Source: Deltaproteobacteria bacterium
GTDB lineage: Bacteria; Lernaellota; Lernaellaia; JACKCT01
NCBI GenBank assembly: GCA_020633895.1
Contig: JACKCT010000005.1
Span: 1-64,000, forward strand
DNA: 64,000 nt
Reading direction: 5' to 3'
This document shows positions 49,434-55,093 of this stretch, piece after piece. Below the pieces are notes generated by a model, which saw only the letters and a list, made by a program, of their open reading frames with translations, was not told where the DNA came from and ran no database searches. Position 1 is the stretch's first letter, and every line of letters begins with the position of its first letter. Both the position numbers and the translations under genes were made by a program.

Positions 49434-50612
49434 TCATTCCGTGACCTCGTGCCAGAGCAGGACGTCGATCGGGTCGGCCACGATGTTGTACGCCGACGAG
49501 TAGGTGTACCAAAAATTCGGGTCCGAATTGTTCGAGAACTCGGACGGGTTCTGCACGGTGACGGTGCCGAACGCCGTGACCACGCCCGTGTATTTGATCT
49601 TGCCGTGCAGCTCGTAGTCGCCCTCGGCGTAGGTCAGGCCGTTGAGGAAATTCTGCTGATTGCCGCCGCTGGCGAAGTCGAGCAGCACATCGTCCTTGCT
49701 GATAAGGCTCACCGTCGTGCCGTTGCCCGAGGAAATGCCCGCGCCGATGATCTTGCCCGTGCAGATGATGGTGCCGATGCCCTGGATCGCGCCGTGCAGC
49801 ACCAGGTCGCCGTCCACGTAGATCGCGCGCTTGCCGTCCGCGTCCTCGGGCACGTTGTTGAAGTTCAGGTTGTTGATGGTCATGGGCGTGTCGCCGTTGC
49901 CCATGATGCCGTCCGAATCGTAGGAGTAGCCGACCGGCGCCTTGTGGGCCAGGTCCACCCAGTCCTCGTCCGAGAGCTTGGCCGCCGACAGGTCCAGGGC
50001 CTCTTTCTCATACCGATGCACCGGATTGGTGTTCGATCCGTCCACGAAATTGATCGTGGAGGTGGACGGGGCGTAGATATTCAGATCCGGCGTTCCCGAG
50101 TCCAGATCCAGATAGGCGTCGCCGTTCAAACGCACGCCCTCGGAACTGACGCGGGGCTTGCCGGCCAGCAACAGGTCGCCGCCCACGTTGAGCGCGTGGT
50201 CGAAAGCCGAATCGATGTTCACCACTACTTCGATAATGCGCAGGCTGTTTCCCGACTGCCCCCGGGAGACCAGCCGCGCGATCTGTCCGGAAAGCGTGTC
50301 GACGGTGACTTCGTAGGACGTGCCGTTGGCCTGAGCCGTCGACGGGATGCCCGCGGTCCATTCGTTATTTTCGCGAAGCTCCGCGATGGCGTTTTGGACA
50401 CCCGCCTCGGCGGCGAAGAACGCCTGGGCTCCGGTGCGGTAATTGGCGGTGATCTTCAGGTCCGTCGAGGCCACGACCATGCCGCCCATGCCGACCAACA
50501 GCGTGAGCATCAGGACGACCATCACGACGATCATCACCACGCCGCGCCGGTCGTTCCGGGCGATTCGCGGGAATTTTCGTCGGGTCTGTCGCATCTTCGA
50601 CGTCCTAGTCAC
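49434..50612 (-). CDS. PilX-like type IV pilus minor pilin/assembly protein (PilX_N domain)
   Basis: The N-terminus …RRGVVMIVVMVVLMLTLLVGMGGMVVASTDLKITANYRTGAQAFFAAEAGVQNAIAEL… matches the PilX N-terminal domain. 392 aa, larger than typical PilX. Confidence 0.7.
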   Translation of the reverse strand: MTRTSKMRQTRRKFPRIARNDRRGVVMIVVMVVLMLTLLVGMGGMVVASTDLKITANYRTGAQAFFAAEAGVQNAIAELRENNEWTAGIPSTAQANGTSYEVTVDTLSGQIARLVSRGQSGNSLRIIEVVVNIDSAFDHALNVGGDLLLAGKPRVSSEGVRLNGDAYLDLDSGTPDLNIYAPSTSTINFVDGSNTNPVHRYEKEALDLSAAKLSDEDWVDLAHKAPVGYSYDSDGIMGNGDTPMTINNLNFNNVPEDADGKRAIYVDGDLVLHGAIQGIGTIICTGKIIGAGISSGNGTTVSLISKDDVLLDFASGGNQQNFLNGLTYAEGDYELHGKIKYTGVVTAFGTVTVQNPSEFSNNSDPNFWYTYSSAYNIVADPIDVLLWHEVTE

Positions 50613-53600
50613 AGTGGTCCGGGTACACGCAGTCCCCGGCCTGCTGGAAGTTGCTTTCGCAGCTTGCGCTCCGGTTGCCGGACGAATCCACGGCCCGGAT
50701 GTAGTAGCCGTAGCACTTGTTGTTTGTGTTCAAGCTGTTCTGATCGTCCACGTACTCGATGAGCGAGGGCGAGGACGCATCGATGTCGGTGACTTCGGTG
50801 TATTTTTTCTGGAAGCTGCCGCAATCGGTGCGCCGGTAGACGTCGTAGCCGACCACGTCCGGTTCCGAATTCGCCAGCCACGACAAGCCGACTTCCTTTT
50901 TGCCGTACGCGGTGGCCACCAGGCCCGCGGGGCACGCCGGGGCGCTGGTGTCTTCGTCCAGATCGTAGGTGTACGCCCCGGCCGACGGGCTGCGGTCCGA
51001 TTGGCCCAGGTTGTCCACCGCCTGGAGGTAGACCCACACGCGGGCGTTGTCGGCGTAAGGCAGCGTTCCGCCGTAGCCGCCCACATCGCCGTCGTATTCC
51101 AAATCCACATAGCTGTAGCCGCCGGTGGGCGCCGTGCCGTTCATGGACAGGTCGATCTTGTAGTACGCCCGCACCGACTGCAGGCCCGCGCCCGAGTAAT
51201 CCACGACCGCCGCGTGCACCGGCACCTGACGATATTCCTGCACATGCACCGCCCCCACCGACGCGCTCATGGGCGTGCTCGCCGACGGTTCGTCCTGGTA
51301 GGCGGTGCCGATGGCCGGTCCGGCGGAGACGGACACGGTGATCTCGTCGGTGGTGCAGGCCCGTTCGCTGTCGTCCAACTCGTAGGTGAACGACACGCTC
51401 ACCACCGCGCCGGACATGGGCATCATGCTGTCCGATTCGACCACGGAGACGCGCGCGCCGGCCGAGTGGCTCTGGGCGGTCGGAGCCGACAGGGACAAAA
51501 CGCCCGTACCCACGCTGCTGACGACCGCCTGCTCGGCCTCGTCGCCGATGTAGATGGTGTCGCCGACGCTAAAGCCCGCGGAGTTGTCCACCGACAGCAG
51601 GCTCGCGCCCGAACCGGTGTACGCCGACAGCTTCGTCGAGGAGTGGACGAATTCCAGCGACACGGTGGCCGTTTCTTCCGAGTCCAATTCCACTTCGTCG
51701 GACGAGTCGAATTCGAGCGTCTGGTCGCTGGGCAGCGGGCCGTCGTCGGAGCCGTCCCACAGCACGTCCGAGTCGGGGATCGCGACGCTGTAAAGGCGGG
51801 CCTGCGTGCGGTCCCAGCCGACGGTCAAGCCGCTGATGGTCGCGCGCGTGGTCGCGGTGTTTTTGATGCGGAAGTTGACCACCTGCTTGTGATCGCCGCC
51901 CAGGGAATTGGTGTAGGTGTCGTCGCGCTCGATGGCGCCGCCCTCGATGTGGAACTGGCGATATTCGGACTGCGTCGTCTGGCCTTCGTTGTCGGTGGCG
52001 ACCACATAGGCGTTGTAGGTTCCCGCGCACCAGGTGCTCACGTCGCCGTCGTCGCAGGGGATCTGATCGCCGCCGAATCCGCAGTACTGGGGAACCCGTT
52101 CCGTGTGGGGGAACTGGCCGGTTTCCGGATCGGGGGTGACGAAGAACTGCACGTTGTCGATGCCCAGGCCGTTGGAGTCGCCTTCGCTGTAGCCCGGCTC
52201 GTCCGGGTCCGCGGCGGTGGCGCGCAGGAAGAGGACACCGTTGGTGATGACCTGGCCCTCGGCCGGTTCGACCATCTGCACCACCGGGCCCTGAGCGTTG
52301 GGCGCGGCCTGGGCGGTGGTTTTGTCCGAGCAGTTGCCGCAGCGATCGCACGCGAAGGCGCTGTAGTAATAGGTGACGCCGTTGATGAGGTTCTCGTGGG
52401 CGAAGGTCATGGCCGCGCCCGGTTGGCCGGTGATGTTGGCCACCTCGTTGCCGGACTGCGTCGAGAGGGGATAGCCGGTGGTGGACGAACGCACCACCAC
52501 CCGTTCAAAGTCGGTGGCGGCCGGGTTGGTCCAGGACAGGTTCACCGTCTGGTCGCCCCCGCCCGCGCCGAAGGGTGCGGGAGCCGACGGGGGCGTGGGC
52601 GGATCTTCGCCGGGCGCGGTGTCGGTCTCGCCCATGTTGGGCGCGTCGTCGCCGGCTCCGTCGCCGTCACCGTAGACCAACTCGCTGGGCTCGCCCTCGT
52701 CCACGCAGTCCACGGAGGTCAGGCGGTAATAGTACGTCCGGCAGGGGTCGACGGCCGTGTCGGTGAATTCCAACGTTTCGTTGTCCAGTTCGGTTTCGTC
52801 GGCGATGCGGGAGCCTTCGGTCAAGGCGAAGTTCGGTTCGGTGCCGCGATAGAGGCGATAGCCGGACACGTCCAGATCCGCGGGCGGATCCCACGTCAGC
52901 AGGACCGAGCCCACGGCCGCGGAGGCGTCGATATTCATCGGCGGGTCGGGGCGCTCGTTGTCGAGCAGGGTGAAGCTCGTCTCCGAGGAAGGCACCGATT
53001 CGTTGAAGTTGGAGTCGTAGGCAATCATCGAAACGAAGTAGGTCGTTTCGTTGGCCAGGCGCGGGTCTTCCACCACGATTTCGCCGGACGTCTCGTCGGC
53101 CACGTTGTAGGGCGGGGTGAGGTAGTCGCCGGACGCGGGGCCGTAGAGAACCTTGTAGCCGCCCAGGTCCGTCAGATCCGAACCGTCGCAGGCGTTCGTG
53201 TTCGGCGGCGTCCAACGCACTTCAAAGTGCCCGCACATGCCGGTTTCCAACACCTGCAGCATGGACGGCGGATTCGGCGCGCAAGCGTCCTCGCTGAATC
53301 CCCGGGCGCCCATGTTGCGCAGATCCACCGTGGACGCGTAGGTGCGCGTGCGGCCGGTACTGGAGATTTGGCTGGTCATCTCAATCTGGATGCGGCGGAT
53401 CGCGGCGCGCTCGGTGGGCGTGAGGCTGGTGAGGGTTTCGGGCGTCATCTCCTGCTCCGCCTCGTTGAAATAGCGGAAGGAAAAATCGATGACGTCGGTG
53501 GCCATTTCCTCGCCGTTTTTCGCCAGCAGGGTCTGGGGGTAATTGAAGTCGTAGGTGATGGATTCGACGGTCTTGATGAACGTCCCGCCCGCCGGGAAAT

Positions 53601-54096
53601 CCTCGGTCAGGGGCTGGGCCAGATTGATGACGTCCGGTTCGCCGCCCAGTTCCACCGGGTTGGACGTCGACACGGCGCGCATCTCGACCGTATTGCCGCT
53701 ATGCAAAAAGATGAAGTCGCCGGGCTCAATCGTGTCCTGCTCGTCGTTCAGGTCGACGTAAAGCTGCGTGTCGCCGGCGTTGGCGGCCTGGGCGAGCACG
53801 GCGTTGATGTCCGAATCCACGTCGCCCCGGAAGGTCAGGCTGGTGAGCTGGGCGTCGGCGAAGGTCTGCTGTCCGACCACGCCGAAGTTGGCCATGCGCA
53901 ACTCGCGGGTGATCTGTTCGAGCGCCAGCTTGGCCGATTGCTGCACCTGGGACTGCTGTCCGATGGCCAAAAAGCCCCGGGACTGGGCGGTGTAGACGGT
54001 GTAGGCCGCGATCATCACGCCCACGGCGAGCGTCATGGCGATGGCCGTTTCGATCAAGGTGAAACCCGCGCGGCGGCGGCGAGGCGAAAATCCCAT
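50605..54096 (-). CDS. Giant type-IV-prepilin-like protein (PilW position) with FN3-like repeats and a Cys-rich C-terminus
   Basis: The N-terminus MGFSPRRRRAGFTLIETAIAMTLAVGVMIAAYTVY is a class III signal with a G|FTLIE prepilin cleavage/methylation site. Several …SGYRLYRGTEPNF… / …VGYDVYRRTDCG… fibronectin-III-like modules follow; 1163 aa. Confidence 0.7.
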   Translation of the reverse strand: MGFSPRRRRAGFTLIETAIAMTLAVGVMIAAYTVYTAQSRGFLAIGQQSQVQQSAKLALEQITRELRMANFGVVGQQTFADAQLTSLTFRGDVDSDINAVLAQAANAGDTQLYVDLNDEQDTIEPGDFIFLHSGNTVEMRAVSTSNPVELGGEPDVINLAQPLTEDFPAGGTFIKTVESITYDFNYPQTLLAKNGEEMATDVIDFSFRYFNEAEQEMTPETLTSLTPTERAAIRRIQIEMTSQISSTGRTRTYASTVDLRNMGARGFSEDACAPNPPSMLQVLETGMCGHFEVRWTPPNTNACDGSDLTDLGGYKVLYGPASGDYLTPPYNVADETSGEIVVEDPRLANETTYFVSMIAYDSNFNESVPSSETSFTLLDNERPDPPMNIDASAAVGSVLLTWDPPADLDVSGYRLYRGTEPNFALTEGSRIADETELDNETLEFTDTAVDPCRTYYYRLTSVDCVDEGEPSELVYGDGDGAGDDAPNMGETDTAPGEDPPTPPSAPAPFGAGGGDQTVNLSWTNPAATDFERVVVRSSTTGYPLSTQSGNEVANITGQPGAAMTFAHENLINGVTYYYSAFACDRCGNCSDKTTAQAAPNAQGPVVQMVEPAEGQVITNGVLFLRATAADPDEPGYSEGDSNGLGIDNVQFFVTPDPETGQFPHTERVPQYCGFGGDQIPCDDGDVSTWCAGTYNAYVVATDNEGQTTQSEYRQFHIEGGAIERDDTYTNSLGGDHKQVVNFRIKNTATTRATISGLTVGWDRTQARLYSVAIPDSDVLWDGSDDGPLPSDQTLEFDSSDEVELDSEETATVSLEFVHSSTKLSAYTGSGASLLSVDNSAGFSVGDTIYIGDEAEQAVVSSVGTGVLSLSAPTAQSHSAGARVSVVESDSMMPMSGAVVSVSFTYELDDSERACTTDEITVSVSAGPAIGTAYQDEPSASTPMSASVGAVHVQEYRQVPVHAAVVDYSGAGLQSVRAYYKIDLSMNGTAPTGGYSYVDLEYDGDVGGYGGTLPYADNARVWVYLQAVDNLGQSDRSPSAGAYTYDLDEDTSAPACPAGLVATAYGKKEVGLSWLANSEPDVVGYDVYRRTDCGSFQKKYTEVTDIDASSPSLIEYVDDQNSLNTNNKCYGYYIRAVDSSGNRSASCESNFQQAGDCVYPDHCD

Positions 54097-54098
54097 GG

Positions 54099-54494
54099 CT
54101 ATCTCCTAGCCACCAGCGTGTCCAGCACGACGGACACGCCTTGGGACGACCACACCTGGATGCGGACGGTTTTGAGATTGTCGTCCGCGTTGGTGGTGAC
54201 GGTGGTGTTGCGAGCGTAGGTGGCGTAGTCGGGGATGCCGCCGTAGGGTTCGTTGGTTTCGATGACCTCGTCGTAGCCCCGGCTTTTGACGTCTTCCATC
54301 GCCGATTCGGCGAGCTGCGTCGCGACCATGACCGCCGCGGAGGACCGCTGACCGTTATAGATCGCCATCAGCGTCGACGCCGTCGCCAACAGGCCCACGG
54401 TCAGCAGGCCGATGGACACCACCACCTCGACCAGCGTGAAGCCGTCGCGGCTTGTCGGTCGGTGGCGCGGGCTATGGCGCATGGAGATCGTCAT
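54099..54494 (-). CDS. PilV-like type IV pilus minor pilin
   Basis: MTISMRHSPRHRPTSRDGFTLVEVVVSIGLLTVGLLATASTLMAIYN… carries the prepilin motif and a PilV-type N-domain; 131 aa. Its start overlaps the upstream stop (TAATG). The track ORF is over-extended to 55196. Confidence 0.75.
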   Translation of the reverse strand: MTISMRHSPRHRPTSRDGFTLVEVVVSIGLLTVGLLATASTLMAIYNGQRSSAAVMVATQLAESAMEDVKSRGYDEVIETNEPYGGIPDYATYARNTTVTTNADDNLKTVRIQVWSSQGVSVVLDTLVARR

Positions 54495-55093
54495 TAGCGG
54501 AACTCCAGCCAGGGGCCGTCCAGGTTGCCGCCGTCGAAACGCAGCATCTTGACGTTGCCGGTGCCGTGGATGTTGACCGCCCGGTCCCGCTGCGTGGCCA
54601 TCGCGGACATATCCTGGGAGGTGGACAGATAGATGGTTCCGGCGTCCAGGGCGGCGCCGTTGGATTTGAAGGTGACGTGAATCGGGTCGGAGGTGCCGTT
54701 CATCTGCACCGGCAGACCCAGGGGATTGCCCAGCAGGTCGGTGTGGGAGGCGGAGCCGTACTGCAGCCCCGGACCGATGGCCGACAGTTCGACGGTTTTG
54801 TACAGATCGTAGAGGTCCGGGCCGTTGCGCTCGGCGTCCTTGTAGATCGAGTAGGTGTGCGTTTCCAGGTTGAAGGTGACGATCACGTCGTAGTTGCCGT
54901 CCACCGCCAGCGAACGGGCCAGACGCATGTCCATGGCCACGGTGCGAACGGCGTTGTTGACGGTAAGCTGCCGCTGCCACGCCGCCATCGAAGGAACCAC
55001 AAGGACGGTGGCCCCCATGATCGCCATCACGATGATCAGCTCCAGGAGCGTAAATCCTGCTCGGCGGCTGGTTTTTCGGCGCGACGTGCTCAA
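54494..55093 (-). CDS. FimT/GspH-family type IV minor pilin
   Basis: …SRRAGFTLLELIIVMAIMGATVLVV… (prepilin motif) plus a GspH-like body. A TTG start is preceded by GGGAGGAAG. First gene of the operon. Confidence 0.75.
   Translation of the reverse strand: MSTSRRKTSRRAGFTLLELIIVMAIMGATVLVVPSMAAWQRQLTVNNAVRTVAMDMRLARSLAVDGNYDVIVTFNLETHTYSIYKDAERNGPDLYDLYKTVELSAIGPGLQYGSASHTDLLGNPLGLPVQMNGTSDPIHVTFKSNGAALDAGTIYLSTSQDMSAMATQRDRAVNIHGTGNVKMLRFDGGNLDGPWLEFR

What the first reader, a model, noticed from the sequence alone, without database searches (positions are those of the whole stretch)
50605..54096. 1163-aa protein with a type IV prepilin N-terminus, FN3-like modules and a Cys-rich C-terminus
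Pseudopilins are normally 130-300 aa. This one begins with a textbook prepilin cleavage/methylation site (RRAGFTLIETAIAMTLAVGV…). It continues for more than 1100 aa with repeated Y-x-(L/V)-Y-R-G/R motifs typical of fibronectin type III domains. It ends in a cluster of Cys residues (…CYGYYIRAVDSSGNRSASCESNFQQAGDCVYPDHCD). This could be a PilW–PilY1-like fusion, or a filament-displayed adhesin integrated into the pilus via its pilin-like N-helix.
Basis: seen in the sequence. Interest (0 to 1): 0.6.

Follow-up and report, generated by a model that had tools for sequence, protein, structure and literature searches.

The report
Giant modular PilW/GspJ-type minor pilin
This is a real, conserved 1163-residue type IV "minor pilin": a normal pilin head followed by about 890 residues of fibronectin/Ig-like domains, most likely a long adhesive stalk carried at a pilus tip, and an unusually large but not unprecedented example of the known "modular pilins".

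Summary
The ORF exists, but on the minus strand (50605..54096, ATG to TAG, 1163 aa). It is intact, has uniform codon usage, and is identical to GenBank MCB9488580.1 ("hypothetical protein", Deltaproteobacteria MAG).

About 13 co-linear homologues (40-52% identity, 1147-1169 aa) come from independent assemblies. A second MAG gives 98% identity across the pilin/FN3 junction. A chimera or frameshift is therefore excluded.

The gene is third in a tightly coupled, conserved four-gene cassette: GspH/FimU-like, PilV/GspI-like, giant J, and a PilX_N/K-type pilin lacking Glu5. No pilY1 is present in any locus.

The extension is a string of four FN3, two Ig-like and one further beta-sandwich domain plus a small barrel. 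It is acidic (pI 4.05) and has conserved cysteines. No PilY1 propeller was found.

Best reading: a tip-displayed modular J-type minor pilin that acts as an adhesin stalk. This function is inferred, not shown. Whether the parent machine is a type IVa pilus or a type II secretion system is unresolved.

It is a new member of a known kind. Interest is moderate.

The parts
54494..55093 (-). Gene 1 of the cassette: GspH/FimU-type minor pilin, 199 aa (..RRAG|FTLLE.., Glu5 present)
   Evidence: Pfam N_methyl E 2.9e-6 and GspH E 6.9e-5, 23.7 bits against a cut-off of 21. NCBIfam gives weak ComGD, GspH and Verru_Chthon cassette protein D hits. Its TAA stop overlaps the next gene's ATG by 1 nt (TAATG). 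A 191-227 aa gene sits in the same position in L001, L003, L004, L073, L074 and L075, and most of them carry a weak or faint Pfam GspH hit.
54099..54494 (-). Gene 2: PilV/GspI-type minor pilin, 131 aa from ATG 54494 (..SRDG|FTLVE.., Glu5 present)
   Evidence: Pfam N_methyl E 1.9e-5. NCBIfam gives sub-threshold hits to type_IV_pilV (E 4e-7), Verru_Chthon cassette protein B and GspI. The start codon was read from the sequence. It ends 2 nt before the ATG of the giant gene, with AGGAGA in its last codons. A 121-126 aa counterpart is present in the other loci (171 aa in the first copy in L073).
50605..54096 (-). Gene 3: the finding. A 1163-aa modular J-type (PilW/GspJ-like) minor pilin. The mature protein is about 123 kDa, pI 4.05, with 18 Cys.
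   Evidence: It is 100% identical to MCB9488580.1, 'hypothetical protein H6684_07615 [Deltaproteobacteria bacterium]'. Homologues P0002-P0013 are 40-52% identical at 99% coverage.
53890..54096 (-). Residues 1-69: class III signal peptide (leader MGFSPRRRRAG, predicted cleavage before F11, Glu at +5) and the long alpha1 helix (14-69)
   Evidence: Sequence. N_methyl scores 21.9 bits on the N-terminal fragment and hits 12 of 12 members. AF2 places the helix at 14-69 and at 13-67 in the full-length model, whose numbering is offset by 1. A PDB profile search gives weak alpha1 hits to geopilin and PilA.
53311..53889 (-). Residues 70-262: beta-rich pilin head of GspJ/PilW fold, with an inserted small beta-barrel (about 99-176)
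52663..53280 (-). Residues 273-478: two tandem FN3 domains (about 278-377 and 387-478) with invariant Cys 271/287/302 and 451/463 (numbering of the alignment, one lower than protein numbering)
   Evidence: Pfam fn3 and Ig_RIMBP2 at 273-374. PDB profile hits at 275-469 and 381-473. AF2 strands with pLDDT 75-88. Invariant columns.
52588..52662 (-). Residues 479-503: low-confidence Asp/Pro-rich linker (YGDGDGAGDDAPNMGETDTAPGEDPPTPPSAP) with a conserved GDGDGxxxDxP core
   Evidence: pLDDT is below 50 at 477-499. G475, D476, G477, G479, D483 and P485 are invariant or nearly so.
52297..52587 (-). Residues 504-600: third FN3 domain
   Evidence: PDB fibronectin hits at 490-579. NCBIfam MXAN_2561_fam domain-level hit at 500-596, E 9.5e-14, sub-threshold for the family. 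AF2 pLDDT 80-90.
51007..52290 (-). Residues 603-1030: central non-FN3 region. It holds an Ig-like domain (605-717, invariant Cys 671/680/689 in numbering), a beta-sandwich (722-823), a second copy of the small barrel (821-885), further strands (898-922), a disordered loop (925-957) and an Ig-like domain (948-1028).
   Evidence: AF2 secondary structure and pLDDT. The two small barrels are homologous: hhalign probability 96.9%, E 1.7e-10. There are no Pfam hits here. This is the candidate ligand-binding region, by inference only.
50608..50943 (-). Residues 1052-1163: C-terminal FN3 domain (1060-1154) and a short Cys-containing tail (window GDCVYPDHCD; AGDCPCP/AGDCPCG in 10 of 12 homologues)
   Evidence: PDB FN3 hits at 1051-1152 and 1055-1109. 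AF2 pLDDT 76-87. C1127 and C1145 are invariant and C1155 nearly so.
49434..50612 (-). Gene 4: K-type (PilX/GspK-position) minor pilin-like protein, 392 aa from GTG 50612 (alternative ATG at 50594). It lacks Glu5 (RRG|VVMIV) and has a Gly-rich repetitive C-terminal part.
   Evidence: Pfam PilX_N E 1.7e-8, 34.8 bits against a cut-off of 25.5. NCBIfam gives a weak GspK hit. It overlaps the giant gene's stop by 8 nt. Partners in 7 other loci are 43-64% identical. PilX homologues characteristically lack Glu5 (PMC7541494).

Best explanation
The gene encodes the J-position (PilW/GspJ-type) core minor pilin of a type IV filament. A roughly 890-residue rod of seven beta-sandwich domains (four FN3, two Ig-like, one other) plus a small barrel has been grafted onto this pilin, making it a 'modular pilin'.

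Proposed mechanism, with status of each step:

1. The prepilin is inserted in the inner membrane. A prepilin peptidase cleaves it after Gly10 and methylates Phe11. This is inferred from the motif.
2. Its alpha1 helix and GspJ-like head assemble with the co-transcribed I-type (PilV-like), K-type (PilX_N, no Glu5) and H-type (GspH/FimU-like) subunits. Together they form the initiation complex that primes the filament and ends up at its tip. This is inferred from gene order, fold and established knowledge of HIJK complexes.
3. As the filament grows through the secretin, the acidic, probably disulfide-stabilised domain string is threaded out. It projects an estimated 25-35 nm beyond or alongside the tip. 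This is inference.
4. The central non-FN3 domains and/or the distal end bind a surface, polymer or cell ligand. In this role the extension stands in for the separate PilY1/PilC adhesin, which is absent from every copy of the cassette. This is inference.

Shown here: the gene is real and conserved; the class III signal motif is present; the head has a GspJ-like predicted fold; the extension is a beta-sandwich string; the four-gene cassette is conserved and tightly coupled.

Not shown here: processing, incorporation into a filament, tip location, and adhesion.
For: Integrity of the gene:
- It is a single ORF with uniform GC3 of 0.85-0.92.
- About 13 co-linear homologues of 1147-1169 aa come from independent assemblies.
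- An independent MAG gives 98% identity over residues 1-1043.

Pilin class:
- G-1/F+1/E+5 are conserved.
- N_methyl hits 12 of 12 members.
- AF2 predicts a 55-residue alpha1 helix followed by a beta head.

J-type assignment:
- A profile of the N-terminal module retrieves hundreds of stand-alone 250-300 aa pilins over its full length.
- The weak family hits of those short pilins are mostly to J-position proteins: PRK10557, ComGF, HpsC, Verru_Chthon cassette C, T2SS J and PilW, alongside some weak H- and I-type hits.

Cassette:
- The order H-I-J-K is conserved in L001, L003, L004, L073 (two tandem copies), L074 and L075.
- The genes are joined by 1-nt, 2-nt and 8-nt junctions.
- K lacks Glu5, as PilX and GspK do (PMC7541494).
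- No pilY1 lies in or next to any cassette.

Extension:
- Pfam, PDB and AF2 agree on FN3/Ig strings.
- It has pI 4.05 and conserved Cys, as expected of an exported protein.

Precedent:
[quoted passage not shown] Pilin+FN3 (IPR003961) is among the 15 commonest (PMC8179133).
- Streptococcus sanguinis PilB and PilC are shown to be adhesins (PMC8179133; PMC9934059).
- Other lineages have J-like pilin + FN3 giants: P0064 (1056 aa, co-linear at 26%), P0015 (1394 aa), and P0021/P0023 (1412-1430 aa, with extra C-terminal modules).
Against: - No filament-machine genes (pilA/gspG, pilB/gspE, pilC/gspF, pilMNOPQ, pilD) occur anywhere in the 64-kb window. The parent machine is therefore unknown.
- No sequence-level match to Pfam PilW or T2SSJ was found for this protein, even at E<=10. 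The J assignment rests on predicted fold and synteny.
- In Myxococcus xanthus a bulky C-terminal addition to PilW3 (sfGFP) is incorporated but jams the machine (PMC7541494). Passage of a 95-kDa extension is therefore not self-evident.
- In AlphaFold-Multimer models of M. xanthus complexes, PilW lies below PilV and PilX rather than at the very tip (PMC13190605).
- The whole-chain AF2 pTM is only 0.33, so the inter-domain arrangement is unknown.
- No ligand-binding domain was identified.
Confidence: 0.6

Rival explanations
1. It is the GspJ minor pseudopilin of a type II secretion system, not of a surface pilus. The cassette would prime a short periplasmic pseudopilus. The long extension would stay in the periplasm or secretin vestibule, for example as a substrate-docking or plug element, or be exposed only transiently.
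For: - The best structural matches include three T2SS GspJ proteins.
- Gene 1 hits Pfam GspH and gene 4 weakly hits NCBIfam GspK.
- In one homologous locus (L003), a GspC-like (faint) gene, a GspD-type secretin (N0 + Secretin_N + Secretin) and a GspE/MshE-type ATPase lie 5-10 kb upstream.
- K-type proteins that need no PilY1 are typical of T2SS, where the terminal beta-strand is supplied in cis (PMC13533445).
Against: - That neighbourhood is not conserved. L001, L004, L073, L074, L075 and the window have no such genes nearby.
- No gspG, gspF, gspL or gspM adjoins any cassette. A free-standing H-I-J-K operon, sometimes duplicated (L073), is the organisation typical of type IVa minor-pilin sets, as in M. 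xanthus with its three clusters (PMC7541494).
- Gene 4 hits PilX_N above threshold, and gene 2 hits type_IV_pilV best.
- A 25-35 nm acidic rod is hard to fit in a periplasmic role.
Confidence: 0.17
2. The prepilin-type N-terminus serves only as an export signal and membrane anchor. The protein would be a cell-envelope or surface FN3-rich protein that is never polymerised into a filament.
For: - No machine genes lie nearby.
- GenBank annotates the protein only as 'hypothetical protein'.
- The N_methyl score on the full-length protein is marginal at 19.5 bits.
Against: - The N-terminal 260 residues are a complete pilin head of GspJ fold, not just a signal.
- Glu5 is conserved.
- The gene is translationally coupled to, and strictly co-conserved with, the three other core minor pilins.
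Confidence: 0.1
3. It is a true PilW-PilY1 gene fusion: the C-terminal part descends from, and works like, PilY1/PilC.
For: - No separate pilY1 is present in any cassette.
- The size of the extension (about 95 kDa) is similar to that of PilY1.
- The conserved C-terminal peptide could in principle mimic the PilY1 C-terminal strand that completes the PilK/PilX sheet (PMC13533445).
Against: - Pfam finds no PilY1/PilC domain at E<=0.01.
- AF2 shows only beta-sandwiches and no propeller.
Confidence: 0.04
4. It is an artefact: an assembly chimera or frameshift joining a normal pilW to a downstream adhesin gene.
For: None was found. Stand-alone 250-300 aa relatives of the N-terminal module do exist, so such a join would be conceivable.
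Against: - Twelve full-length homologues are 1147-1169 aa at 98-99% coverage.
- The same junction is present at 98% identity in an independent MAG (P0001, residues 1-1043).
- It is also present at 26-38% identity in more distant relatives.
- GC3 is uniform along the ORF.
- The linker after the head is conserved (RNMG.R.F..D.C).
Confidence: 0.01

Closest known systems
PilW (Pseudomonas/Myxococcus type IVa pili) and GspJ (XcpW, EpsJ; T2SS) core minor (pseudo)pilins; Thermus TTHA1219
   Same: - Class III signal peptide with Glu5 and a long alpha1 helix.
- Third position in an H-I-J-K operon.
- Partner K-type protein lacking Glu5.
   Different: - Five to six times longer (1163 aa against about 190-280 aa).
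- An extra small barrel is inserted in the head.
- About 890 aa of beta-sandwich domains are appended.
- No significant sequence match to the Pfam PilW or T2SSJ models.
Modular type IV pilins (Streptococcus sanguinis PilB-vWA and PilC-lectin; InterPro survey of Raynaud et al. 2021, PMC8179133)
   Same: - An N-terminal pilin module with functional modules grafted on for display by the filament.
- Pilin+FN3 (IPR003961) is one of the 15 most frequent architectures.
- PilC works in a tip complex with an I-type subunit (PMC9934059).
   Different: - The characterised examples are bimodular and 40-50 kDa. The most extreme multi-domain case singled out in that survey has 860 residues.
- This protein has eight appended modules and is 123 kDa.
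- It is from a diderm.
- It occupies the core J position of a PilY1-less HIJK cassette.
- No ligand-binding domain is recognisable.
PilY1/PilC tip adhesins of type IVa pili
   Same: - A large (about 100 kDa) protein encoded with the four core minor pilins.
- Presumed tip location and adhesive role.
- Modular and variable between relatives (P0021 and P0023 carry extra distal modules).
   Different: - PilY1 is not a pilin. It is held by beta-strand addition of its C-terminus to PilX/PilK (PMC13533445) and has a C-terminal beta-propeller.
- Here the large protein is itself a pilin and has no propeller.
Large minor pilins with extra structural domains: ETEC CofB, Vibrio cholerae TcpB, Thermus ComZ, T2SS GspK
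   Same: Pilin modules that carry additional beta-rich or alpha domains, are thought to sit at the tip, and initiate assembly (discussed in PMC8179133).
   Different: - Those belong to type IVb, Com or K-type subunits.
- They carry one or two extra domains, not a long FN3/Ig string on a J-type head.
Verru_Chthon cassette (NCBIfam TIGR02596/02598/02599 proteins D, B, C) and cyanobacterial HpsB-D pseudopilin sets
   Same: Free-standing cassettes of H-, I- and J-like prepilin-type proteins. The window's genes 1 and 2, and short relatives of the giant's head, give weak hits to D, B and C respectively.
   Different: All hits are far below the family cut-offs (for example 15-25 bits against 256 for protein C). 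The window's cassette is not a member of these families.

Membership tests
Type IV pilin / prepilin-type protein (class III signal peptide) | Short basic leader ending in Gly, then a hydrophobic segment of about 20 residues with Phe/Met at +1 and Glu at +5 | tested here: met
   The sequence reads MGFSPRRRRAG|FTLIETAIAMTLAVGVMIAAY. N_methyl scores 21.9 bits against a cut-off of 21.2 on the N-terminal fragment, and 12 of 12 homologues hit it. G/F/T/E are conserved. On the full-length protein the score is 19.5 bits, just below the cut-off.
Type IV pilin / prepilin-type protein (class III signal peptide) | Lollipop architecture: an N-terminal alpha1 helix of more than 50 residues packed on a beta-sheet head | tested here: met
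   AF2 predicts a helix at 14-69 followed by a beta head at 79-258, with pLDDT 78.7 and pTM 0.66. This is a prediction, not an experimental structure.
Type IV pilin / prepilin-type protein (class III signal peptide) | Cleavage and N-methylation by a prepilin peptidase, and polymerisation into a filament | not testable with these tools
   This needs biochemistry. No prepilin peptidase gene lies in the 64-kb window.
GspJ / PilW (J-type core minor pilin) | GspJ-type head fold | tested here: met
GspJ / PilW (J-type core minor pilin) | Sequence match to the curated family models (Pfam PilW PF16074, T2SSJ PF11612; NCBIfam GspJ) | tested here: not met
   None of the 12 N-terminal modules hits either Pfam model at E<=10. 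There is only a weak PRK10557 hit, E 0.0014, 18 bits against a cut-off of 120. Some relatives give sub-threshold PilW or T2SSJ hits: P0025, P0027 and P0064.
GspJ / PilW (J-type core minor pilin) | Encoded between an I-type and a K-type subunit in an H-I-J-K operon | tested here: met
   The order is GspH-like, PilV/GspI-like, giant, PilX_N. It holds in the window and in six other loci.
GspJ / PilW (J-type core minor pilin) | Forms a complex with I and K subunits | not testable with these tools
   No multimer prediction or experiment was available.
PilY1 / PilC tip adhesin | C-terminal PilY1/PilC beta-propeller domain (Pfam PF05567 / IPR008707) | tested here: not met
PilY1 / PilC tip adhesin | A C-terminal peptide of about 10 residues that completes the PilK/PilX beta-sheet in trans | not testable with these tools
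   A conserved C-terminal tail exists. Testing it needs AF-Multimer or genetics (concept from PMC13533445).
Modular type IV pilin (sensu Raynaud et al. 2021) | An N-terminal pilin module plus at least one extra domain not specific to type IV filament biology | tested here: met
   The pilin module spans 1-262. It is followed by Pfam fn3 (43.1 bits against 25) and six further beta-sandwich domains plus a small barrel. The definition is quoted.
Fibronectin type III domain | Pfam fn3 above the gathering score, and an FN3 fold | tested here: met
Type II secretion system operon member | Embedded in a gspC-M cluster with the major pseudopilin gspG | tested here: not met
   No gsp genes lie in the window. 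Only L003 has GspD- and GspE-like genes, 5-10 kb away and separated from the cassette by rpsB-tsf.
Type IVa pilus minor-pilin/PilY1 cluster | fimU-pilV-pilW-pilX followed by pilY1 (and pilE) | tested here: inconclusive
   The first four genes are present in this order. pilY1 and pilE are absent in all loci examined.

The most novel reading that the evidence does not exclude
The cassette would encode a PilY1-independent type IV pilus tip in which the adhesin is built into a core minor pilin. The J subunit itself would carry a roughly 30-nm flexible 'tip fibril' of FN3/Ig domains. This would be a type IV analogue of the tip fibrillum of chaperone-usher pili. Its conserved Cys-containing C-terminal peptide might fold back onto the K-type subunit, by disulfide or beta-strand addition, to lock the tip complex. 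It would also show how a machine that is jammed by PilW-sfGFP can pass a 95-kDa cargo, provided the cargo is a thin string of small domains.
Probability: 0.15. Interest if true: 0.65.

Novelty: new member of a known kind. Interest (0 to 1): 0.4.

Why it matters
Core minor pilins (H, I, J, K) are usually small. The adhesive function of type IVa pili is usually delegated to the separate protein PilY1/PilC.

This family shows a natural alternative. The J subunit itself carries an extension of about 95 kDa in a cassette that has no pilY1.

If it is displayed on a filament, it bears on three questions:
- How large a cargo a secretin-based machine can thread. PilW3-sfGFP jams the Myxococcus machine (PMC7541494).
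- Whether adhesins can be anchored covalently in the filament core, and so resist retraction forces without beta-strand addition.
- How uncultivated Deltaproteobacteria/Myxococcota-like bacteria, several of whose genomes were assembled from fen samples, attach to surfaces, polymers or prey.

On the practical side, GenBank labels the protein only 'hypothetical protein', so the annotation can be improved. The concept of modular pilins is already published, which limits the surprise.

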